This document shows positions 2,310 through 15,608 of a DNA stretch of 24,138 bases, piece by piece. Origin of the DNA: an uncultured Lachnospiraceae bacterium (GTDB lineage Bacteria; Bacillota; Clostridia; Lachnospirales; Lachnospiraceae); NCBI GenBank assembly GCA_902797475.1, contig CADBTG010000012.1, positions 1-24,138 on the forward strand, given 5' to 3'. How positions within the stretch are numbered: the first letter of the stretch is position 1; each line of letters opens with the position of its first letter. The position numbers were made by a program, and so were the translations under genes. The notes beneath the pieces were generated by a model. It had not been told where the DNA came from, searched no databases, and was given only the letters and a program-made list of their open reading frames with translations.

Positions 2310-3074
2310 ATGCAGAATATTACCGGCAAACAGACGGCTCTTGAAGACGATGCCGAAATTTATAAAAGAGGCGCGGATCGGCCCGACAACAAAACCGAAA
2401 AGCAGACCTGGAGCGAATTAAGCGCGAAGGGCAAATGGTCGTATTTTTGCACCTATTATCTGGCTAAGATTCTTATCATTCTTGCCATCGGCGCTCTTGT
2501 CGTATACGGCCTGTACTCCGCCCTGAAGCCGAAGCCGAAGGATGTCGCGTATATCGTAGTCCTGGACAACACCCTCGACGCTGTTGCCCTGCAGGAATTC
2601 TTCGACGATGCCGTTGTGGAAATGGGCTATGAAAAAGGCAAAGCCGAAATCTTCTGCGACACCCGCCTTTCCGGTTCCCAGAATTCCCTTACCGACATGT
2701 CAACCCTGTCGACCTATATTGTGGCCGGCACGCTGGACATTCTGATTGCCGATGAGAAGGGACTTCGCCGCTATGCCGAGAACAGCATGCTGGTCGATCT
2801 CGAAACGCTTCCCGATGACATCAAAGCTGCCATCCCCGAGGAGGACCGCTACATCTACCATTTCGTTCCGAACAGGGACTCCGCCAAAGATGCCGTGGAG
2901 CGTGATATCTTCCTCGGAATCCGCTTAGATAACACACAGCTGATCAAGGATGTCAAGTTCACCACGCGCGAAACCGATTACATCCTGACTCTCATTCCGA
3001 CCGGCGACGGCGTCAAGAACGGAAACGCCTACGGCGTAATCCGTGCCATCCTCGGAATCCCGCAGGTGAAATAA
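2310..3074 (+). CDS. Hypothetical membrane-anchored protein (single TM, extracellular domain resembling a solute-binding protein)
   Basis: 254 aa, with RBS AAAGGA. 'KWSYFCTYY' precedes one hydrophobic helix; the downstream 'IVAGTLDILIAD...YAENSMLVDLETL' resembles type II SBP segments. It lies 21 nt after the previous gene and is probably co-transcribed. Confidence 0.7.
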   Translation: MQNITGKQTALEDDAEIYKRGADRPDNKTEKQTWSELSAKGKWSYFCTYYLAKILIILAIGALVVYGLYSALKPKPKDVAYIVVLDNTLDAVALQEFFDDAVVEMGYEKGKAEIFCDTRLSGSQNSLTDMSTLSTYIVAGTLDILIADEKGLRRYAENSMLVDLETLPDDIKAAIPEEDRYIYHFVPNRDSAKDAVERDIFLGIRLDNTQLIKDVKFTTRETDYILTLIPTGDGVKNGNAYGVIRAILGIPQVK

Positions 3075-4380: not shown

Positions 4381-5826
4381 TTAATATGCCGAAACAATAT
4401 CACTGTAATAGGTCATCATTGTCATGATCATGACGTTCATCGCTTCGTCCATATCGTATACAGCGGCGGCGTCACGGAAATCATCAAACGAGCAGTCGAT
4501 GATTTCAAACTGCGTCTGTCCGTCCTCGTCCAAATCGGCGATCAGGAAGAATTCATATCCGGGGAACGTGATACTGATGCTCGCGAGCCGCTGCGTGCTG
4601 TAGTAATTCTCCGGATCTTCCGGCTCGAAATAGCAGAAGAACCGGTCGGTCGAATCAAAGCCGAAGAAGACCGCATATGCATTCGATTCTTCCTGCTCGG
4701 CTTCACGGTCTCCGGCGCCTTTGAATTCCACGTTCTGGGCCTTCAGGAATGCGGCCAGATCTTCATAGGACATGGTGCCGAGCCCCTCGACAACGCCGCG
4801 CATAACGTAACGGTAACGTTCCGAACGGCTGAAATGCCAGGTGTCTTCGTAAACCAGTCCTTCCGGTGCTTTGGGCGCCGGCGTGTAGGAGCCGTACGCG
4901 CCAACCATCTCCGGAACGAACCGCTCCGGATGTTCTTCGATTTCATACGTCAGGCTGACCTCACCGGTCGCGTAAGGGGCAAGATATCCGGTATTGAACC
5001 ATAGTTCGATACCGTCATCCGTAGCAACCCAGCCGACCGTTCCGTCCGTGATTGCCTTACGGACAAGTTCCTTCCAGTTATCCCAGAAGCCTTCAGGCTC
5101 CGCCATGATCTCGAGTGCCTCGATTGCGTCGTCAGCCAGGCCTTCGCAATCCTTAATCAGCGCCCCGAGTGCCAGTCTCTCACCGTTCTGAGAGTTAAAG
5201 CTGTAACCCGTCCGGTATTCATACGGATGCGCTCCGCCGATATAAGTATCATCATCTCTCTCATATGCGAAAACCTTGGAGTCGTTTCTGTGCACCCGGA
5301 TTATGTTATGTTCATACCATCTTTCATTGAATTCGCCGTTCACGGTCTCAAACATGGCGCCCGCATCGTCGCGAACCTTAAAATTCTGCCGATAGGTGTA
5401 AAGATTCTGCGCTCTGACAGCTTTCGCGAGGTTTTCATATTCGTACTCGGTGATGTAAAGGTAATCGATCTCCGAATCGAAGGCCGGCCCCTCACCCGTG
5501 AATTTTTCCGAATAGCGGTCACAGCCGTCGCCGTGTGCGACAACATAGTTCGGGCCTTCCTTCACATCCGGCACCGGCATTTTGTCCGCAACAGGCGTAG
5601 GTGTCACGGTGATCTCGGGCGTGGGCTCCTCCGTCGGTACAGGCGTAGGCGTCTCAGGCTCACCGGTCGGCACCTCGCTGGGCGTCACCACTTCACTGGG
5701 CGTAGGCGTCGACTTTCCTTTTCCGACGCGGTTTTTGCCCTCTTTCGCGCTTTCGTCTTCCGAACCGCATGCCGTGAGGCAAACCGCCAAAACAATTGTC
5801 AGGACCAGACAAAGTAATCTCTTCAT
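4381..5826 (-). CDS. Lipoprotein with a DUF3298/DUF4163 (RsiV/PdaC-like) domain and an unrecognised C-terminal domain
   Basis: Start moved to ATG 5826 (RBS GGAAGGAG). MKRLLCLVLTIVLAVCLTAC lipobox, PT-rich linker, and 'TYIGGAHPYEYRTGYSFNSQNGERLALGALI', the GGAH signature of the DUF3298/RsiV family. Confidence 0.75.
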   Translation of the reverse strand: MKRLLCLVLTIVLAVCLTACGSEDESAKEGKNRVGKGKSTPTPSEVVTPSEVPTGEPETPTPVPTEEPTPEITVTPTPVADKMPVPDVKEGPNYVVAHGDGCDRYSEKFTGEGPAFDSEIDYLYITEYEYENLAKAVRAQNLYTYRQNFKVRDDAGAMFETVNGEFNERWYEHNIIRVHRNDSKVFAYERDDDTYIGGAHPYEYRTGYSFNSQNGERLALGALIKDCEGLADDAIEALEIMAEPEGFWDNWKELVRKAITDGTVGWVATDDGIELWFNTGYLAPYATGEVSLTYEIEEHPERFVPEMVGAYGSYTPAPKAPEGLVYEDTWHFSRSERYRYVMRGVVEGLGTMSYEDLAAFLKAQNVEFKGAGDREAEQEESNAYAVFFGFDSTDRFFCYFEPEDPENYYSTQRLASISITFPGYEFFLIADLDEDGQTQFEIIDCSFDDFRDAAAVYDMDEAMNVMIMTMMTYYSDIVSAY

Positions 5827-5868
5827 CGTTTTCTCCTTCCGCGCAATTCGAGTGTTTCGCATTTTCCT

Positions 5869-7263
5869 TTAATAGAGTTCCGGATAATACAGATAAAAGC
5901 CCTGAAGAAGCACCGCAAGGGCCTCTTCGATATTGACAAATGAGACCGTTCTCTGCGAAGGAAGTCCGTCCTTCTGCGGGAAGGACCGGTCCACCACATC
6001 GTATTCCACCGTGCTTGTGTGATAGTTGTCCGTCACAAGCAGAAAGCCGTCCAGCTTAAACGGCAGGACATATAACAGGGAAAGCGTCTGCACACCTGTC
6101 GGATCGTTCTCGTTTTTCGGCCAGAACATCAGCTGGATTTTATCTCCGTTCATCGGATCGTAAAATGAGATGTTGGGCTGTACTTCTTCTGCCTCGCCGG
6201 GGGCAACGAACGTATAGGAAAGATCCGTCATATCAAGACTGAGTGTGCATTCGTCATACGTCATGGTCCCGACGCCGGCAATCAGTTTCAGCAGAATTTC
6301 CTCGTAAATCGGGGTCTGCGCCTCCTTCGGGTCGGCCTTATCCTCACGTTCCTTCAACATGCCGTCGGCATAGGCTCCGACATACTGCTCCGCGAAAAGC
6401 TCCGGATGTTCGGCAACCTTCAGCGTCCCTTTGTAAAGTTCCGTAAGGTCGTCGGTCATGTATTCCATTTCAATCCAGTATTCGATTCCTTCGTCGGCAT
6501 ATACCCATCCGTAATGACGGAAGCCGAACAGCTGTGTGAAAACATTGTCCCAGGAATCAAGCAGGACGTTTTTATTTCCGTATTCCGCTTCGATGCCCGC
6601 GCGCATGGCTTCCTGCAACACATCGGTATCCTTAATGACATCCGTGATGTCGAGCAGCTCGCCGGTTTTGGTATCGAACGAGTAACCCGTCAGATCCTCC
6701 GTCGCAACGACGCCGTTAAATTCGCTGAGGCTTCTCGTGTAGGAGAATACCGCGGAATCGTTTCGGAACGCCTTGATTCTGTCGCGATAATACCAGCCCT
6801 TGTCAAACCGCTCCTCCTGTACGGAAAGGAGCTTCAGGATTTCATCCTGATAATACGCTCCGGACTCATTGTGCCGGTTGTTTTCTTCCTTCATCCGGGC
6901 GGCAAGGTCCGGATATCCGTCCTCCGTCAGATAGATGAAATCAATCTCCGAAGTGAACGCCGGCAGATTGGGGCTTATATAGGTATCCGCATAAGCCGTT
7001 CCGTCCATGGTCGTTCCGATTGCAAAAAGCGGTCCCTCCGTAAGCTCCGTATGCGGAAGCTTCGCGGTGTCCGGCGTCGGCATCGGCGTAATCTCCTTTG
7101 TCGGCTCCGGGGTTGCCGTGTTTTCGGGCGTTGCCGTCAGAGTGCCTGTCGGCGCTTCGGTCACCCTCCCGTTCCCCTTTTCCTGTTCCTTCTTTTCTTC
7201 TTTGCATCCGACAAGGCATACAGCCATCGCCAGAATCAAAAGAAGCGCAATTCGTCTTTTCAT
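5869..7263 (-). CDS. Paralogous DUF3298-like lipoprotein lacking the GGAH motif
   Basis: MKRRIALLLILAMAVCLVGC lipobox, RBS GGAGG. Collinear similarity to 4381-5826: PAFTSEIDFIYLTE/PAFDSEIDYLYITE, RNDSAVFSY/RNDSKVFAY, TGYSFDTKTGE/TGYSFNSQNGE, HPELF..YVGAY/HPERF..MVGAY, GVGTMTYDE/GLGTMSYED. Confidence 0.72.
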   Translation of the reverse strand: MKRRIALLLILAMAVCLVGCKEEKKEQEKGNGRVTEAPTGTLTATPENTATPEPTKEITPMPTPDTAKLPHTELTEGPLFAIGTTMDGTAYADTYISPNLPAFTSEIDFIYLTEDGYPDLAARMKEENNRHNESGAYYQDEILKLLSVQEERFDKGWYYRDRIKAFRNDSAVFSYTRSLSEFNGVVATEDLTGYSFDTKTGELLDITDVIKDTDVLQEAMRAGIEAEYGNKNVLLDSWDNVFTQLFGFRHYGWVYADEGIEYWIEMEYMTDDLTELYKGTLKVAEHPELFAEQYVGAYADGMLKEREDKADPKEAQTPIYEEILLKLIAGVGTMTYDECTLSLDMTDLSYTFVAPGEAEEVQPNISFYDPMNGDKIQLMFWPKNENDPTGVQTLSLLYVLPFKLDGFLLVTDNYHTSTVEYDVVDRSFPQKDGLPSQRTVSFVNIEEALAVLLQGFYLYYPELY

Positions 7264-11255: not shown

Positions 11256-11284
11256 TTTACACTAAGGCCTAAAATCAGTATAAT
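11256..11284 (+). promoter_or_regulatory. Sigma-A-type promoter for the VTC-DUF4956-CotH operon
   Basis: TTTACA (11256-11261), N17, TATAAT (11279-11284); near consensus. Confidence 0.75.
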
Positions 11285-11342: not shown

Positions 11343-12077
11343 ATGGGAATCAAACGATACGAGAATCCTTATAAAGACCGACCCAAGAGGCACGAGATCA
11401 AAATCCTTCTTTCGTATCCGAAATACGTCGAACTGCGGGCAAGAGTCACCGGCATTCTGACGCCGGATCCGCACATGCCGGGCCCCGAAGGCTATCTGAT
11501 TCGAAGCGTCTATATGGACACGCTTCGGGACGACGGTTATTACGAGAAGGACAGCGGCGTGCAGCATCGGGACAAATACCGGATGCGGGCCTATAACGGT
11601 GATGATTCGTTCATCGTTCTCGAAAACAAAGAAAAAATCGACGACCGCATCTGTAAGACATCCGTCCGGATTTCAAGAGCGGATTATGACGCGGTCCTGC
11701 AGGGCGATTTCTCGGTTTTCGAGAAGAGGGAGGAAGCGCTTCCACAGGAAATCCTTGCGCTCCACCGCGCGCACGGACTGACGCCGAAGGTCATCGTCGA
11801 GTACTACCGGGAGGCCTTCACGCATCCGCTTTCGATGGTGCGTGTGACATTTGACAGAATGGTGGCCGCCGGCATGAATACGCTTGACATGTTTGATGAG
11901 AAGCTTGTCACGTCCCCTGTTTTTGATAAGCGGGAGGTCATTCTCGAAATCAAATACGACGATGCTTTTCCGATGTATCTGAAGCAGCTGCTTCAAAACA
12001 ACGGCATTCGTCTTGCGGTATCCAAATATGTCATTTGCCGCGATAAGTTAAAACAAAACTATATCTGTTTACAATAA
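11343..12077 (+). CDS. Polyphosphate polymerase (VTC) domain protein, CYTH/TTM superfamily
   Basis: N-terminal ExK motif 'RHEIK', then 'IRSVYMDT', 'EKDSGVQHRDKYRMRAY', 'LENKEK', 'PKVIVEYYREAF', 'RVTFDR', 'VILEIKY', 'SKYVIC'. No signal peptide or TM helix, so cytoplasmic. Confidence 0.88.
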   Translation: MGIKRYENPYKDRPKRHEIKILLSYPKYVELRARVTGILTPDPHMPGPEGYLIRSVYMDTLRDDGYYEKDSGVQHRDKYRMRAYNGDDSFIVLENKEKIDDRICKTSVRISRADYDAVLQGDFSVFEKREEALPQEILALHRAHGLTPKVIVEYYREAFTHPLSMVRVTFDRMVAAGMNTLDMFDEKLVTSPVFDKREVILEIKYDDAFPMYLKQLLQNNGIRLAVSKYVICRDKLKQNYICLQ

Positions 12078-12087
12078 AGGAGCCGAT

Positions 12088-12750
12088 ATGTCTGATTACA
12101 TTACCGAAATCAAAAACCTGATGGGACAGGCCGATTCCCTGAGCAGCACGACGCCGGCGGAAATCATCGCGTGCCTGACCTTTACCATCATCTGTGCAGC
12201 CGTCATCTACTGCGTCTACCGTTTCTTCTACCGGGGCGCCAGCTACAGCGAAAACTTCGCCGTGCTTCTCGTATTGGTGACGCTGATTACCGCCATGATC
12301 ATTCTGACCATCAGCTCAAGCGTGGCGCTTTCGCTCGGCACAATCGGTGCACTGAGCATCATCCGCTTCCGTTCGGCCGTGAAGGATCCCCTCGATGTGG
12401 GATTTCTGTTTTGGGCGGTTGTGGCAGGTCTGACGACTGGCTCCGGCATGGTTCCGTTCGCCCTGATCGGTTCCGCCTTCATCGCCGTCGTTTACATCCT
12501 GATGAACTTCATCCGCACCTCGAGAGGCACGTACCTGCTTGTCATCCGCTACGAGGACAAGGCGCAGGAAGAGGTTGATAAGAAGGTTGCCGAACTGAAG
12601 GGCAGACTGAAGAACAAGACACTTTACAAGAACGAAACCGAACTTACCGTGCAGATTCGTTTCCGCGGCACCGATACGGGCTTTTTAAAGGAGCTGCAGG
12701 CTGTTGACGGCGTCAGCAACACGGTATTGGTGGAGTTCACCGGTGAATAA
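12088..12750 (+). CDS. DUF4956 domain membrane protein
   Basis: Several hydrophobic helices with 'ALSLGTIGALSIIRFRSAVKDPLDVGFLFWAVVAGLTTGSG' (DUF4956 signature), then a soluble ACT-like C-terminal segment. RBS AGGAG, 10 nt after the VTC stop. Confidence 0.85.
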   Translation: MSDYITEIKNLMGQADSLSSTTPAEIIACLTFTIICAAVIYCVYRFFYRGASYSENFAVLLVLVTLITAMIILTISSSVALSLGTIGALSIIRFRSAVKDPLDVGFLFWAVVAGLTTGSGMVPFALIGSAFIAVVYILMNFIRTSRGTYLLVIRYEDKAQEEVDKKVAELKGRLKNKTLYKNETELTVQIRFRGTDTGFLKELQAVDGVSNTVLVEFTGE

Positions 12751-12789
12751 AGGAATGCTTTTTGAAGATTACTTCCACGGAGGGAGACT

Positions 12790-15213
12790 ATGAAGAAAAA
12801 GACACTGATTATCATATGCTCGGCGGTTCTGGTCGTCGGCATCATCATCGCCGCGGTGATTATCTTTAACAGAGAGAAGCCCGCAACGCCCCAGCCGGTT
12901 CCGCCCGGACAGCAGACCGAGCCGGACCGCGACGAGCCCGGGACAAAGGTGACGCCGCCTGTCGATTACGGCGATGAAGAGGACAAGTTCACATTTACCG
13001 ATGAGATGGGCGATTTGATGTTCTCCCACAATCAGTACTTCTATGAAGAGGGCATCTACGTCCGCATCTATTCCCGTAACGGCGGAACCATCCGGTATAC
13101 CGTTAACGGCGAGACGCCGACCGAGAAGTCTTCCGCCTATGCTCCCGGCAAGGGAATCTTTCTTGCCGCTTCCACGACGGATGACCCGAAGGTTCATACG
13201 ATACACGCCAAGGCGTTTTATGAGGATGGTACCAGCTCCGACGAGCTGGTTCACAGCTATCTGATCGGGCGCGACGTAGCGAGCCGGTACGATAATCTGC
13301 TGATCTTCTGCATTTCCGGAAATCCTGCGGATCTGACAGGTTCGCCGAACGGCATCTTCTTCGGCAACAACTACGAGCTTCGCGGCAAAAAGAGCGAGCG
13401 TCCCGTTTACGTCGAAGTGCTGAACCGCTCCGGCGAGAAGATTACGGAGCAGAAACTCGGCGTCCGCATCAACGGCGGTTACAACCGTCAGTTCTCGCAG
13501 AAGTCCATGAAATTCTTTGCCCGTAAGAGCTACTCTCCGAACGAAGGCACGGCATATCTGAACTGCTTCAACCTTCTTGCGGAGGACGGCAGCCAGATTG
13601 TCCGCTATGACAAATTCGTGCTCCGCGCCAGCGGCAATGATTTCCGCTTTGCATTTGTCAGAGACGAGCTGAACCAGATGCTCGCAGCCGATGCCGGCTT
13701 CAGCGATTACGAACCGGTCTTCCCGGCTGTTGCTTACATGAACGGACAGTATTTCGGCTTCTATTGGCTCCACGGCGCTTATTGCGACGAGTTCTTCAAA
13801 AACCGTTACGGTGACAGCCCCGCAAGGAAGGCTGCGAACGGTGAAAAATGCGACGAGGGCGAATTCATTGTTCTCGCCGGAACCGATACCGAGAAAGAAC
13901 TTGACGAAGAAGACGAAGACGAAGCAAAGATTGCCGAAGAGTTCAACAAGACCTACGAGGAATTCTCGAAGAAGGATCTCCGCAACGAGGCCGAATACCG
14001 CAAGCTCCGCGCGTGGATGGATGTGGAGAATTATCTCGATTACATGGCTTATAACATCTATCTGTGCAATCAGGACTGGCCGAACAACAACGTCCGCTGC
14101 TACCGTTATTTTCCGACAGCAGGCGAGTCCTTCGGCGAGGCTCCGTATGACGGACGGTGGAGATATCTCCTGCACGACATCGACTATACCTACGGTCTTT
14201 ACGGACAGCAGGAAGTATTGAACTCCTATGATACGTTAAAACAGGTGCTTTCCTCTCCCGGTCCGCGCCGTTCCCCGCTTTTTGCAGCTTTGATGGAGCG
14301 TGCGGATTGCCGCGAGTACTTCATCCGGAAATCGCTTGACTACGGTGCCGGCGCGCTTTCCTACGGAAATGTTTGCGCGAAGCTTGACGCCGCAATAAGA
14401 AGCCGCGAAAAGGAAATGGATTACTACTACGCTTACCTGACGTCACTCGGAAAACCCGATGTTTCCTGGGTCAGAAAGAACCAGTACGCATCGAACCTTC
14501 AGTCCATCCGGGATTTCGCAGAGCGCAGAGCCGACCGTTCCGCCGATTATCTGAAATTCAACCTGAATCTGAAGGGTGAAAAGTATTGGATCAACGCTGT
14601 CGGTGCCGACGGCGCAAAGCTCGTAATCGGAAGCTTCACCGCCAAGGAAGGCGCCGGCGTCAACGGCGTATACTTCACCGATTACGCCGTGAAGGTATCC
14701 GCCGAATACAAACTCGGCAAAGCCTTCGATTATTGGGAAGTGAACGGCAATAAAGTGACGACCGAAACGCTGAGCATCACCAAAGCATCCCTCAAGGACG
14801 GCCGTGTTTCGATTGCGCTTCACGTAAAGGATGTTCCGGTTGACAAGGTTTTGATTTCGGAATTCTGCGCCCGCGATGACGATTCCGTTGTGCTCACGAA
14901 CTATTCGACGTCGGACATCTCCTTAAAGGGCTACATCCTTTCCGACGGCACCTACGACTATCCTTTCGAGGACGGCGACGTGATCAAGGCCGGAGACAGC
15001 ATTGTCATCTACGGCAACAACACCGACACCGATGCGGCATCCGAAAGGAAGGCCATCTTCAACCTTTCCGAGGGTGAGACCGTTATCTTGAAAAATGCCA
15101 CCGGCACCGTCGTGGATTCCGCATACGTTCCGAATCCGCACACCGGTTTTTACTTTAAGAGAAACCTCTTCACAATGAAATTTGAAGAGGTTCCGCAAGG
15201 CAAAGACAATTAG
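12790..15213 (+). CDS. Membrane-anchored CotH-family atypical kinase with an Fn3_assoc/CHB_HEX-like domain and a C-terminal lamin tail domain
   Basis: N-terminal TM anchor (MKKKTLIIICSAVLVVGIIIAAVIIF) and Pro-rich linker. 'IRYTVNGETPTEKSSAY' (Fn3_assoc). CotH motifs 'GGYNRQFSQKSMK', 'LRASGND', 'RDEL', 'NGQYFGFY', 'DWPNNN' (D429), 'WRYLLHDIDYTYG' (D463/D465). LTD 'VLISEF...ISLKGYILSD...FNLSEGETVILKNATGTVVDS'. Confidence 0.87.
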   Translation: MKKKTLIIICSAVLVVGIIIAAVIIFNREKPATPQPVPPGQQTEPDRDEPGTKVTPPVDYGDEEDKFTFTDEMGDLMFSHNQYFYEEGIYVRIYSRNGGTIRYTVNGETPTEKSSAYAPGKGIFLAASTTDDPKVHTIHAKAFYEDGTSSDELVHSYLIGRDVASRYDNLLIFCISGNPADLTGSPNGIFFGNNYELRGKKSERPVYVEVLNRSGEKITEQKLGVRINGGYNRQFSQKSMKFFARKSYSPNEGTAYLNCFNLLAEDGSQIVRYDKFVLRASGNDFRFAFVRDELNQMLAADAGFSDYEPVFPAVAYMNGQYFGFYWLHGAYCDEFFKNRYGDSPARKAANGEKCDEGEFIVLAGTDTEKELDEEDEDEAKIAEEFNKTYEEFSKKDLRNEAEYRKLRAWMDVENYLDYMAYNIYLCNQDWPNNNVRCYRYFPTAGESFGEAPYDGRWRYLLHDIDYTYGLYGQQEVLNSYDTLKQVLSSPGPRRSPLFAALMERADCREYFIRKSLDYGAGALSYGNVCAKLDAAIRSREKEMDYYYAYLTSLGKPDVSWVRKNQYASNLQSIRDFAERRADRSADYLKFNLNLKGEKYWINAVGADGAKLVIGSFTAKEGAGVNGVYFTDYAVKVSAEYKLGKAFDYWEVNGNKVTTETLSITKASLKDGRVSIALHVKDVPVDKVLISEFCARDDDSVVLTNYSTSDISLKGYILSDGTYDYPFEDGDVIKAGDSIVIYGNNTDTDAASERKAIFNLSEGETVILKNATGTVVDSAYVPNPHTGFYFKRNLFTMKFEEVPQGKDN

Positions 15214-15215
15214 AT

Positions 15216-15608
15216 TTACAGAATCAGATAAACCGCTGAAATGAGAAGCTCCGCGACGCATGCCAGGCATGCCGGCACGGAGCTTTTCTTTTTTTCGGAG
15301 ACATATTCCGCAAGGAAGCACACCGTGTCACACAGAACAACAAACGGCGCGTAAACCCTGCCGCATTTCTTATAAATGACCAGATACAAAGCCCCCATGG
15401 AGAAAGCGGAAACAAATACACTTGCGACTCTGTGCTGCATGACGGACGCATTTACCGAAGGTCCCATGACATACTTCCAAAAGGCTTTCTCCACGTAAGG
15501 CGTAAGCATCAGAAAAGACAGCCCGAGCAGAATGCCCGAAAGGACCCGGTTCCCCGTATAGCAAAATATAAGACCGAACAGATTCAGTGCCGCAATGAAA
15601 AATGCCAT
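15216..15608 (-). CDS. Small hypothetical membrane protein (about 4 TM helices)
   Basis: 130 aa, mostly hydrophobic, with RBS AAAGGGG and its own promoter-like signal upstream. No family recognised. Confidence 0.65.
   Translation of the reverse strand: MAFFIAALNLFGLIFCYTGNRVLSGILLGLSFLMLTPYVEKAFWKYVMGPSVNASVMQHRVASVFVSAFSMGALYLVIYKKCGRVYAPFVVLCDTVCFLAEYVSEKKKSSVPACLACVAELLISAVYLIL
15246..15295 (+). terminator. Probable intrinsic terminator of the VTC-DUF4956-CotH operon, lying inside the convergent gene
   Basis: Outer stem AAGCTCCG (15246-15253) / CGGAGCTT (15278-15285), inner stem GCATGC-CAG-GCATGC, followed by TTCTTTTTTT. It starts 33 nt after the CotH stop. Confidence 0.55.

What the first reader, a model, noticed from the sequence alone, without database searches (positions are those of the whole stretch)
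11343..15213. VTC polyphosphate polymerase + DUF4956 membrane protein + surface CotH kinase: candidate polyphosphate export and extracellular phosphorylation system
Seen: a self-contained operon (near-consensus promoter at 11256-11284, RBS-linked genes 10 and 39 nt apart, terminator-like hairpin at 15246-15295). It encodes a cytoplasmic VTC/TTM enzyme with intact basic tunnel motifs, a multi-pass membrane protein with conserved 'IIRFRSAVKDP', and a kinase predicted to face outward on a TM anchor, with Fn3_assoc and lamin-tail modules. Established: yeast Vtc4 uses this fold to polymerise polyP from ATP while TM subunits of the VTC complex pass it across the membrane; Bacillus CotH is an atypical kinase that phosphorylates spore-coat proteins. 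From memory, this gene trio recurs in Firmicutes and I know of no assigned function, but I cannot verify that here. Inference: DUF4956 may be the channel for the split VTC enzyme. Exported polyP could supply the phosphoryl donor for a kinase located where ATP is scarce, to modify surface proteins or glycans or to build a polyP surface layer. Alternatively the TTM enzyme may be a triphosphatase, or may transfer phosphate to a lipid carrier.
Basis: partly seen in the sequence, partly recalled or inferred. Interest (0 to 1): 0.82.

Follow-up and report, generated by a model that had tools for sequence, protein, structure and literature searches.

The report
Bacterial VTC–DUF4956–CotH envelope operon
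A rumen or gut Lachnospiraceae bacterium carries a widespread, functionally untested three-gene operon: a yeast-type polyphosphate-polymerase-like enzyme, an MgtC-like membrane protein and a kinase anchored outside the cell, an association already in print and seen many times in this scan.

Summary
Three RBS-linked + strand genes (11343-15213) lie between a near-consensus promoter and a strong hairpin terminator. They encode a VTC-domain enzyme, a DUF4956 membrane protein, and a TM-anchored CotH-fold kinase with CHB_HEX_C/Fn3_assoc and LTD modules.

All Vtc4 tunnel and catalytic residues are conserved. DUF4956 is a divergent MgtC/SapB relative (5 TM helices plus an ACT domain). It does not resemble the yeast VTC channel subunits.

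In 301 genomes of the phylum, VTC and DUF4956 co-occur in 45 of 45 genomes, with matched copy numbers. Thirty-five of 37 genomes with exported-type CotH carry the pair. Spore-type cytoplasmic CotH is not linked to it. Cthe_2159 beta-helix proteins sometimes replace CotH. A two-component system adjoins about one third of loci and Pel genes about one quarter.

This genome's assembly (79% complete) shows no Pel, PPK1, PPK2 or PPX.

The trio is already published as a Pel accessory set (2020, 2025) without a function. This scan has noted it 745 times in at least 671 genomes.

My best reading (confidence about 0.35) is a membrane-coupled polyphosphate-type synthase that serves an extracytoplasmic process. 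PolyP as the kinase's phosphoryl donor remains speculative (about 0.08). The S. intermedius knockouts do not fit a simple linear pathway.

The parts
11256..11284 (+). sigma-70-type promoter-like site TTTACA-17-TATAAT
   Evidence: 11 of 12 consensus matches, the best in the 5-kb scan. It lies 59 nt upstream of the first ATG.
11343..12077 (+). VTC-domain (Vtc4-like TTM) protein, 244 aa, no TM segment or signal
   Evidence: Pfam VTC E 4e-33. A 28-sequence profile hits yeast Vtc4 3g3q at E 3e-10. K20, R80, R82, K96, R156, R167, E202 and K228 are invariant and align to Vtc4 K200, R264, R266, K281, R361, R373, E426 and K458.
12088..12750 (+). DUF4956 membrane protein, 220 aa, a divergent MgtC/SapB-family member
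   Evidence: Pfam DUF4956 E 2e-15. AF2 model pLDDT 84.6 with five helices at 23-142 plus a beta-alpha-beta-beta-alpha-beta domain. hhalign against 30 MgtC proteins: probability 96.9%, E 1.4e-10, 191 columns.
12154..12513 (+). five predicted TM helices of the DUF4956 protein (residues 23-142)
   Evidence: Helices 23-47, 55-75, 79-95, 101-118 and 122-142 in the model. The charge distribution fits N-out/C-in (read from the sequence).
12358..12390 (+). conserved IIRFRSAVKDP motif at the predicted cytoplasmic TM3-TM4 turn
   Evidence: R93, R95 and D103 are invariant. I91, F94 and K99 are at least 90% conserved in 46 homologues.
12526..12738 (+). C-terminal ACT-like domain of the DUF4956 protein (residues 147-217)
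   Evidence: The top Foldseek PDB hit is the MgtC C-terminal domain 2lqj, followed by ACT domains. VIA-align gives Z 10.3 to 2lqj and Z 9.8 to 7qa5.
12790..15213 (+). membrane-anchored, exported CotH-fold kinase, 807 aa
   Evidence: Pfam CotH, CHB_HEX_C_1/Fn3_assoc and LTD. The AF2 model of residues 165-600 has pLDDT 87. Its top PDB hits are B. cereus CotH 5jd9/5jda at E 1.6e-10 and TM 0.71, and the next hit is at E 0.05.
12802..12867 (+). N-terminal signal-anchor helix of the CotH protein (residues 5-26)
   Evidence: MKKK then 22 hydrophobic residues, followed by a Pro/Thr/Glu-rich linker. 103 of 108 trio-linked CotH proteins have such an N-terminal hydrophobic segment.
13042..13242 (+). CHB_HEX_C_1 / Fn3_assoc module
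   Evidence: Pfam E 9e-8 and 1e-5, both above their cut-offs.
13462..14532 (+). CotH kinase domain (residues 225-581)
   Evidence: Pfam and genome search. D429, N434, H462, D463 and D465 are invariant in 24 homologues. D429/N434 align to the NFDGFVHNY catalytic loop of 5jd9, but that sequence alignment is weak at E 0.92.
14842..15123 (+). lamin-tail domain (LTD)
   Evidence: Pfam LTD E 4e-14.
15243..15296 (+). intrinsic-terminator-like hairpin and U run
   Evidence: -30.4 kcal/mol, z -4.6 against 200 shuffles. It overlaps the 3' end of a convergent 130-aa hydrophobic ORF.

Best explanation
This is a self-contained operon for an envelope-directed, phosphate-polymer-type module. The cytoplasmic VTC protein is a Vtc4-like triphosphate-tunnel enzyme. 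It most likely polymerises phosphate from ATP. It works only together with the DUF4956 protein, an MgtC-family membrane protein. That protein has a conserved basic RFRxxxK turn at the inner membrane face and a cytoplasmic ACT-like domain.

The pair delivers its product, or its product's effect, to the outer face of the membrane. There the TM-anchored CotH-fold kinase acts on a cell-surface protein or glycan, using its glycan-binding-type modules.

Shown here: the families, the conserved residues, the topology signals, and the genomic coupling. Inferred: polyP synthesis, contact between VTC and DUF4956, any transfer across the membrane, and the kinase's substrate and phosphoryl donor.
For: The Vtc4 catalytic and tunnel residues are all conserved.

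VTC and DUF4956 are found in 45 of 45 genomes out of 301 sampled (about 7 expected by chance). Copy numbers match (1, 2 or 3), and the genes were adjacent at nearly every listed place (one genome had them on different contigs).

Thirty-five of 37 genomes with exported-type CotH carry the pair. The six 352-368-aa spore-type CotH proteins I read have no N-terminal hydrophobic segment. Four lie in genomes without VTC; the G259 copy lies about 30 kb from that genome's trio and the G150 copy on another contig.

103 of 108 trio-linked CotH proteins have an N-terminal hydrophobic segment, against 1 of 105 VTC proteins.

In 88 loci with enough flank, CotH lies within three genes in 69. A secreted Cthe_2159 beta-helix protein takes its place in 6, and up to 10 by the cluster count. 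So the third partner is always an extracytoplasmic, polymer-binding type of protein.

The trio also occurs in Planctomycetota, Opitutae, Chloroflexota, Acidobacteriota and Saprospiraceae records. All three families ring in the B. thetaiotaomicron, C. glutamicum and M. acetivorans control genomes.

No PPK1, PPK2 or PPX was found in this 79%-complete assembly.

From established knowledge: the bacterial outside is electrically and topologically equivalent to the yeast vacuole lumen into which VTC threads polyP.
Against: No bacterial VTC-domain protein has been assayed in any paper I could find.

DUF4956 is homologous to MgtC. The known members of that family act as regulators of other membrane proteins, not as channels (as cited in PMC12345266).

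The membrane domain resembles no solved channel. Only the ACT domain found PDB matches.

In S. intermedius the VTC deletion had no reported aggregation phenotype, while the DUF4956 and CotH deletions did, with opposite effects on Pel level.

Thirteen of 88 loci have the pair with neither CotH nor Cthe_2159 nearby. Sixteen of 45 VTC-positive genomes also have PPK1.
Confidence: 0.35

Rival explanations
1. Cytoplasmic polyP homeostasis unit. VTC makes polyP that stays inside the cell. The MgtC-like DUF4956 protein is a membrane-tethered regulator, with its ACT domain sensing a metabolite, that tunes VTC or phosphate/Mg2+ handling. CotH is co-regulated because surface remodelling and phosphate status are linked, not because anything crosses the membrane.
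For: DUF4956 is homologous to MgtC over the TM and ACT parts. Salmonella MgtC acts on the F1Fo ATPase and on PhoR (cited in PMC12345266). An OmpR/PhoB-type response regulator plus a PhoR/PnpS-like histidine kinase adjoins 30 of 88 loci, although their family scores are all below cut-off. The 2024 preprint itself proposed that the polyP stays cytoplasmic. This genome shows no other polyP synthase.
Against: This reading does not explain why exported CotH almost never occurs without the pair (35 of 37) while cytoplasmic CotH does. It also does not explain why the third gene is always a secreted polymer-binding protein. Sixteen of 45 VTC-positive genomes already have PPK1 for cytoplasmic polyP.
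Confidence: 0.25
2. The TTM enzyme is not a polymerase. It could be a tripolyphosphatase or nucleotide triphosphatase, or it could transfer phosphate to a lipid or other carrier, acting with DUF4956 at the membrane.
For: The TTM/CYTH superfamily is mostly made of hydrolases and cyclases (established knowledge). The protein gives a weak CYTH hit. It also keeps one Glu of the canonical ExExK strand (RHEIK, E18), where Vtc4 has Thr.
Against: The protein scores far better against VTC than against CYTH (115 versus 17 bits). It also keeps every residue that is mutated in catalytically dead Vtc4 (R264, R266 and E426 equivalents).
Confidence: 0.15
3. One reading: polyP is threaded out through a DUF4956 pore and serves as the phosphoryl donor, or as the transferred group, for the extracellular CotH kinase where ATP is scarce.
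For: The evidence is the same genomic coupling as above. The asymmetry is notable: exported CotH nearly always needs the pair, but the pair does not always need CotH.
Against: No kinase of this fold is known to use polyP. I found no paper linking CotH activity to polyP. The CotH domain keeps the catalytic-loop and Mg-binding Asp/Asn pattern of ATP-using B. cereus CotH. The S. intermedius VTC knockout showed no phenotype. Replacement of CotH by a non-kinase beta-helix protein in some loci argues that feeding a kinase is not the pair's general purpose.
Confidence: 0.08
4. A dedicated accessory module of Pel exopolysaccharide biosynthesis, as proposed for streptococci.
For: Twenty-one of 88 loci have PelF, PelA, PelD or PelE genes beside the trio, and all 21 include CotH. 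Knockouts in S. intermedius alter Pel level and aggregation.
Against: There are no Pel genes in this window. No PelF (DUF3492) was found anywhere in this 79%-complete assembly. About three quarters of the loci lack Pel genes. This contradicts the published statement that the synteny is not found outside Pel loci.
Confidence: 0.05

Closest known systems
cotH / poly-phosphate polymerase / DUF4956 accessory genes of Gram-positive pel operons (Whitfield et al. 2020, PMC7112168; S. intermedius SIR_1594/1593/1592, PMC12345266)
   Same: The same three families sit adjacent in one transcription unit. CotH is exported, VTC is cytoplasmic, and the membrane protein has an MgtC-type TM domain plus ACT. 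No biochemical function is known.
   Different: Here the trio stands alone between housekeeping genes, and no Pel genes were found in the window or the assembly. This CotH is TM-anchored and carries CHB_HEX_C/Fn3_assoc and LTD modules rather than a C-terminal FN3.
Eukaryotic VTC complex (yeast Vtc4/Vtc3/Vtc1; PDB 3g3q, 7ytj, 8i6v)
   Same: The catalytic TTM domain is the same, with all tunnel and catalytic residues conserved. Both are obligatorily paired with a membrane component.
   Different: There is no SPX domain and no fused 3-TM domain. The membrane partner is a separate MgtC-like 5-TM plus ACT protein, unrelated by these tests to Vtc1-type subunits. Neither polymerase activity nor translocation has been shown in any bacterium.
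Bacillus CotH spore-coat Ser/Thr kinase (PDB 5jd9/5jda)
   Same: The atypical kinase fold is shared (Foldseek E 1.6e-10). The conserved Asp/Asn catalytic loop and the HDxD motif are shared.
   Different: Spore CotH is about 360 aa, has no signal sequence and works in the mother cell, where ATP is available. The window's protein is 807 aa, membrane-anchored and extracellular, with glycan-binding-type and LTD modules, and it is genomically tied to VTC/DUF4956.
MgtC/SapB/YhiD family (Salmonella MgtC; C-terminal domains 2lqj, 7qa5)
   Same: The architecture is the same: five TM helices plus a C-terminal ACT-like domain. Profile-profile homology covers 191 columns.
   Different: The protein is below Pfam's MgtC threshold (8 bits versus 31.4). 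It has its own invariant RFRxxxKDP motif. It is always paired with a VTC gene, which ordinary MgtC genes are not. MgtC was found in 45 of 61 genomes sampled.
Clostridium perfringens NELoc-2 (two VTC-domain proteins plus a CotH kinase on a pathogenicity locus; PMC11677781)
   Same: VTC-domain and CotH genes are clustered in a Firmicute.
   Different: That locus is plasmid or pathogenicity-locus borne and also carries a sigma/anti-sigma pair, a glycosyltransferase and a deacetylase. I did not analyse it here beyond the paper's text.

Membership tests
Vtc4-type polyphosphate polymerase (VTC domain, TTM superfamily) | VTC domain above Pfam's gathering score | tested here: met
   115.3 bits against a cut-off of 23, covering positions 1-232 of 235.
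Vtc4-type polyphosphate polymerase (VTC domain, TTM superfamily) | Basic tunnel and catalytic residues of Vtc4 (K200, R264, R266, K281, R361, R373, E426, K458) | tested here: met
   They align to K20, R80, R82, K96, R156, R167, E202 and K228, all invariant in 28 homologues. The Vtc4 numbering was derived from the printed alignment and from my memory of Hothorn et al. 2009.
Vtc4-type polyphosphate polymerase (VTC domain, TTM superfamily) | Synthesis of polyP from ATP | not testable with these tools
   This needs an enzyme assay. I found no bacterial member assayed in print.
Eukaryotic VTC complex (coupled synthase-translocase) | SPX domain and a DUF202-type 3-TM domain, fused to or assembled with the catalytic domain | tested here: not met
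   The 244-aa protein has only the VTC domain. Its invariable partner is DUF4956, an MgtC-like protein.
Eukaryotic VTC complex (coupled synthase-translocase) | Physical coupling of the polymerase to a membrane channel | not testable with these tools
   Only genomic coupling is shown (45 of 45 genomes).
MgtC/SapB family | Five-TM domain followed by a C-terminal ACT-like domain | tested here: met
   Shown by the AF2 model. PDB hits are 2lqj and 7qa5. Full-length AFDB hits are HI_0647, SapB, YhiD and MgtC, at E 5e-7 to 1e-4.
MgtC/SapB family | Sequence membership (Pfam MgtC gathering score) | tested here: not met
   8 bits against a cut-off of 31.4. Distant homology is nevertheless supported by hhalign (96.9%, E 1.4e-10). 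The MgtC HMM also hits two DUF4956 genes at E 5e-6 and 4e-4.
CotH atypical protein kinase | CotH domain and kinase fold | tested here: met
   Pfam 88.5 bits against a cut-off of 23.8. Foldseek top hits are 5jd9/5jda at E 1.6e-10 and TM 0.71 by target, with the next hit at E 0.05.
CotH atypical protein kinase | Catalytic-loop Asp/Asn and Mg-binding Asp | tested here: inconclusive
   D429, N434, D463 and D465 are invariant in 24 homologues. D429/N434 align to the 5jd9 catalytic loop, but that sequence alignment is weak (E 0.92). No residue-level superposition was available.
CotH atypical protein kinase | ATP-dependent Ser/Thr phosphorylation of coat proteins in the mother cell | tested here: not met
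   Only the location part of this feature was tested. The signal-anchor and linker predict an extracytoplasmic domain. Activity and substrate are not testable here.
pel-locus accessory cassette (cotH, PPP, DUF4956) | The three families adjacent in one operon | tested here: met
pel-locus accessory cassette (cotH, PPP, DUF4956) | Contiguity with pelDEADAFG | tested here: not met
   No Pel family occurs in the 24-kb window. DUF3492/PelF was not found in the assembly, which is 79% complete.

The most novel reading that the evidence does not exclude
A bacterial counterpart of the yeast VTC machine, built from unrelated membrane parts. An oligomer of the MgtC-like DUF4956 protein takes the polyP chain from the VTC tunnel at its RFRxxxK turn. 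It passes the chain outward, driven by the membrane potential. The exported CotH-fold enzyme then uses that polyP as phosphoryl donor, or attaches it to wall proteins or glycans. That would be an ATP-independent way of doing phosphorylation chemistry outside the cell.
Probability: 0.08. Interest if true: 0.9.

Novelty: new member of a known kind. Interest (0 to 1): 0.45.

Why it matters
If the pair really makes and exports a phosphate polymer, it would be a third bacterial route to polyP besides PPK1 and PPK2. It would also be the first route aimed at the cell surface. It would give a first biochemical role to a branch of the enigmatic MgtC family.

It would explain how thousands of exported CotH-fold kinases, in gut, rumen, soil and marine bacteria and in some pathogens, could work where ATP is scarce.

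The data here also correct a published view. The trio is not a Pel-specific accessory set. It is an autonomous module that Pel loci have recruited in a minority of cases.

As a single locus, this window is an ordinary copy of that module.

Tried and rejected
- Complex prediction of DUF4956 with VTC, using my own alignments, gave no verdict (score 0.01). It says nothing either way.
- Single-sequence and profile sequence searches of the CotH part against the PDB were not significant. The fold search settled the family.
- Foldseek and VIA-align of the DUF4956 model matched only its ACT domain in the PDB. The TM domain therefore found no solved relative, and the yeast VTC chains did not appear. 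This is not evidence that the folds differ.
- My first label 'GGDEF' for the commonest neighbour cluster was wrong, because single linkage through REC domains misled me. Pfam showed OmpR-type response regulators plus HisKA kinases. NCBIfam could not assign them to a named system, since all scores were below cut-off.
- I looked for VTC-DUF4956 fusions among 150 family representatives. The longer proteins were fusions to unrelated or uncalled parts, such as a citrate synthase fragment and a 2-thiouracil desulfurase, and none was fused to VTC.
- I tried to test the lead from earlier notes that diderm bacteria pair VTC/DUF4956 with an HlyD adaptor and a TolC duct. In 16 short (8 kb or less) records of other phyla, most of them double-membraned (Chloroflexia and Anaerolineae among them), read with a crude ORF caller, I saw the trio but no such genes. 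This is too small a sample to count against the lead.
- A 'phylum of G301' search returned the same genomes as my own phylum sample and added nothing.
- A plasmid search gave only four Gram-positive hits.
- A complementarity test against PPK1 showed no mutual exclusion: 16 of 45 VTC-positive genomes have PPK1, against 36 of 256 VTC-negative genomes.

Full report
**What is there**

The window holds three + strand ORFs at 11343-12077, 12088-12750 and 12790-15213, separated by 10 and 39 nt.
- A TTTACA-17-TATAAT site (11 of 12 matches) lies at 11256-11284.
- Strong Shine-Dalgarno sequences precede the second and third genes.
- A hairpin with a U run follows the last stop codon. It folds at -30.4 kcal/mol, z -4.6, and none of 200 shuffles folds as well.
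- The neighbours on both sides are unrelated genes on the other strand: truA, ornithine/aspartate carbamoyltransferase, coaX and dus upstream, and a small hydrophobic ORF and a lipoprotein trigger-factor-like gene downstream.

The operon is real and self-contained. Close homologues are annotated in Lachnospiraceae MAGs. The nearest genome record, at 95% identity for DUF4956, is from a water-buffalo omasum.

**Gene 1: VTC**

Pfam VTC scores 115 bits. A profile of 28 homologues finds yeast Vtc4 structures at E 3e-10.

In that alignment the window's K20, R80, R82, K96, R156, R167, E202 and K228 fall on Vtc4 K200, R264, R266, K281, R361, R373, E426 and K458. All are invariant in the family alignment.

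The protein has no SPX domain, no TM segment and no signal sequence. One difference from Vtc4 is that the first strand reads RHEIK. It keeps one Glu of the canonical TTM ExExK motif where Vtc4 has Thr.

**Gene 2: DUF4956**

The family is large. A library of 50%-identity cluster representatives held 5,075 at E up to 0.001, nearly all 215-235 aa.

G84, R93, R95 and D103 are invariant, and K99, F108, W109 and G114 nearly so. The AlphaFold model (pLDDT 84.6) has five helices between residues 23 and 142 and a beta-alpha-beta-beta-alpha-beta domain at 147-217.

Several results point to the MgtC family:
- The best PDB match is the C-terminal domain of M. tuberculosis MgtC, followed by ACT domains.
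- The best Swiss-Prot models are full-length HI_0647, SapB, YhiD and MgtC.
- hhalign against 30 MgtC proteins taken from genomes of the phylum gives 96.9% probability, E 1.4e-10, over 191 columns.
- Pfam's MgtC model itself picks up two DUF4956 genes below threshold.

DUF4956 is therefore a divergent branch of the MgtC/SapB family, as the 2025 S. intermedius paper also states for SIR_1592. It is not related, by any test I could run, to the 3-TM subunits of the yeast VTC channel.

The charge distribution fits an N-out/C-in topology. That places the invariant RFRxxxK turn and the ACT domain at the cytoplasmic face. This topology is my inference from the sequence.

**Gene 3: CotH**

The protein begins with MKKK, a 22-residue hydrophobic helix and a Pro/Thr/Glu-rich linker. 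These are followed by CHB_HEX_C_1/Fn3_assoc, CotH and LTD domains.

The modelled kinase domain (pLDDT 87) matches B. cereus CotH 5jd9/5jda at E 1.6e-10, far above every other chain. D429, N434, H462, D463 and D465 are invariant. D429/N434 align with the catalytic loop of 5jd9, although that sequence alignment is weak by itself.

**Co-occurrence**

I searched 301 genomes drawn evenly from the phylum.
- VTC was found in 45 genomes and DUF4956 in the same 45, plus one sub-threshold hit. Copy numbers matched (1, 2 or 3) and the genes were adjacent at nearly every listed place (G190 had them on different contigs). About 7 shared genomes would be expected by chance.
- CotH above cut-off was in 42 genomes.
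- Five of these have only the 352-368-aa Bacillus type, which has no N-terminal hydrophobic segment. Four of the five lack VTC.
- Of the other 37, with long exported-type CotH, 35 carry VTC and DUF4956. The two exceptions are lipoproteins.
- Conversely, 10 of 45 VTC-positive genomes lack exported CotH.

The dependency is therefore asymmetric. Exported CotH almost always comes with the pair, while the pair can stand without CotH. Relatives are not independent samples, so I give counts rather than P values.

**Neighbourhoods**

I read 114 loci: 40 from the phylum sample and 74 from a genome-collection scan. I used a simple ORF caller, my own HMMs and all-against-all clustering, and named the recurrent clusters with Pfam.

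Of the 88 loci with at least three genes on each side:
- 69 have CotH within three genes.
- 6 have instead a secreted Cthe_2159 beta-helix carbohydrate-binding protein (up to 10 by the cluster count).
- 13 have neither.
- 30 have an adjoining OmpR-type response regulator plus HisKA kinase. Their best NCBIfam scores (RppA/PhoB and PnpS/PhoR/RppB) are all below cut-off.
- 21 have Pel genes (PelF, DUF2194/PelA, TPR/PelE, GAF/PelD), always together with CotH.

The free-standing trio, as in this window, is the commonest arrangement. The published remark that the synteny is not found outside Pel loci does not hold.

The sample is biased toward relatives of the query.

A pattern scan also recovered the trio in Planctomycetota, Opitutae, Chloroflexota, Acidobacteriota and Saprospiraceae records. 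All three families ring together in the B. thetaiotaomicron, C. glutamicum and M. acetivorans controls.

**This genome**

No PPK1, PPK2, PPX or PelF was found. The assembly is only 79% complete, so this is not proof of absence.

A second CotH paralogue with the same CHB_HEX_C/Fn3_assoc module lies on a 3-kb contig and is cut at its 5' end.

Across the phylum, PPK1 is not excluded by VTC: 16 of 45 VTC-positive genomes have it, against 36 of 256 VTC-negative genomes.

**What is in print**

- Whitfield et al. 2020 listed cotH, a poly-phosphate polymerase, DUF4956 and DUF4832 as accessory genes of streptococcal, clostridial and bifidobacterial pel operons.
- The S. intermedius work (preprint 2024, mBio 2025) described the three proteins. 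It noted the MgtC TM and ACT domains. It found that deleting SIR_1592 (DUF4956) or SIR_1594 (CotH) cut aggregation by more than half in sputum medium and changed Pel level in opposite directions. Deleting SIR_1593 (VTC) gave no reported change.
- C. perfringens NELoc-2 carries VTC-domain and CotH genes.
- I found no assay of any bacterial VTC protein, no paper on DUF4956 function, and no link between CotH activity and polyP.

This scan's own notebook holds 745 notes on this trio in at least 671 genomes. One later check priced the full export-and-donor reading at 5 in 100.

**Reading**

The firmest conclusions are these:
- VTC and DUF4956 form an obligate two-gene unit.
- The VTC protein has everything Vtc4 needs for catalysis.
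- Its partner is an MgtC-type membrane protein with a conserved basic turn on the inner face.
- The unit serves something outside the membrane. Its recurrent third partner is always an exported, polymer-binding type of protein, and exported CotH hardly exists without it.

I therefore favour a membrane-coupled polyphosphate-type synthase feeding an extracytoplasmic process (0.35). This is ahead of a purely cytoplasmic polyP homeostasis unit with an MgtC-like regulator (0.25), a non-polymerase TTM enzyme (0.15), the specific 'polyP as kinase donor' chain (0.08) and a Pel-only role (0.05).

Four things weigh against the favoured reading: the S. intermedius VTC knockout, the regulatory rather than channel nature of known MgtC proteins, the lack of any solved channel resembling the TM domain, and the 13 of 88 loci with no exported partner nearby.

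**Verdict**

However, the cassette is already described in print and has been found many times in this scan. This locus is an ordinary, free-standing copy, and the interesting mechanism remains untested.

Noticed in passing
window 15216-15608 (-): A 130-aa very hydrophobic ORF with no Pfam family runs convergently into the operon. Its last ~25 codons overlap the terminator hairpin. An ORF of the same length sits at the same place in the closest relative (L045). It has its own promoter-like site at 15668-15640.
   Followed up: partly
G000 contig C134, L002:61-1704 (+): There is a second CotH paralogue in the same genome, with CHB_HEX_C_1/Fn3_assoc plus CotH. It is cut at its 5' end by the contig edge and is not next to a VTC/DUF4956 pair on what is assembled.
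   Followed up: partly
related loci, e.g. L023:6808-8709, L104:6156-8125, L027:6689-8789: An OmpR-type response regulator and a HisKA sensor kinase sit directly beside the trio in about one third of loci, co-directional or divergent. The best NCBIfam matches, all below threshold, are RppA/PhoB and PnpS/PhoR/RppB. This may be a dedicated regulator of the module. It is absent from this window.
   Followed up: partly
related loci L005, L007, L008, L011, L012, L018, L078, L079, L083, L115: In these loci a 690-810-aa Cthe_2159 (PF14262) beta-helix carbohydrate-binding protein takes the place of CotH next to VTC-DUF4956, often with the same two-component pair alongside.
   Followed up: partly
L214:1915-4920 (-) and L190:3201-5900 (-): In a Saprospiraceae record a 1001-aa protein without a Pfam CotH hit lies between the VTC and DUF4956 genes. 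In a proteobacterial record an 899-aa one lies next to the VTC gene (no DUF4956 gene was called in that 8-kb window). Both cluster with a planctomycete protein that my own CotH HMM recognises, so they may be very divergent CotH-like partners.
   Followed up: no
window 5869-7263 (-), 2310-3074 (+), 4381-5862 (-): Two sizeable ORFs (464 and 254 aa) have no Pfam family. A 493-aa ORF has only weak PdaC and mucin-like low-complexity hits. All are upstream of the operon among housekeeping genes.
   Followed up: no
window 12769-14175 (-): A 468-aa antisense open frame lies inside the CotH gene. Similar antisense frames misled my crude ORF caller in several related loci (the 'c9' cluster replacing VTC). 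I treat it as a non-coding shadow frame.
   Followed up: partly
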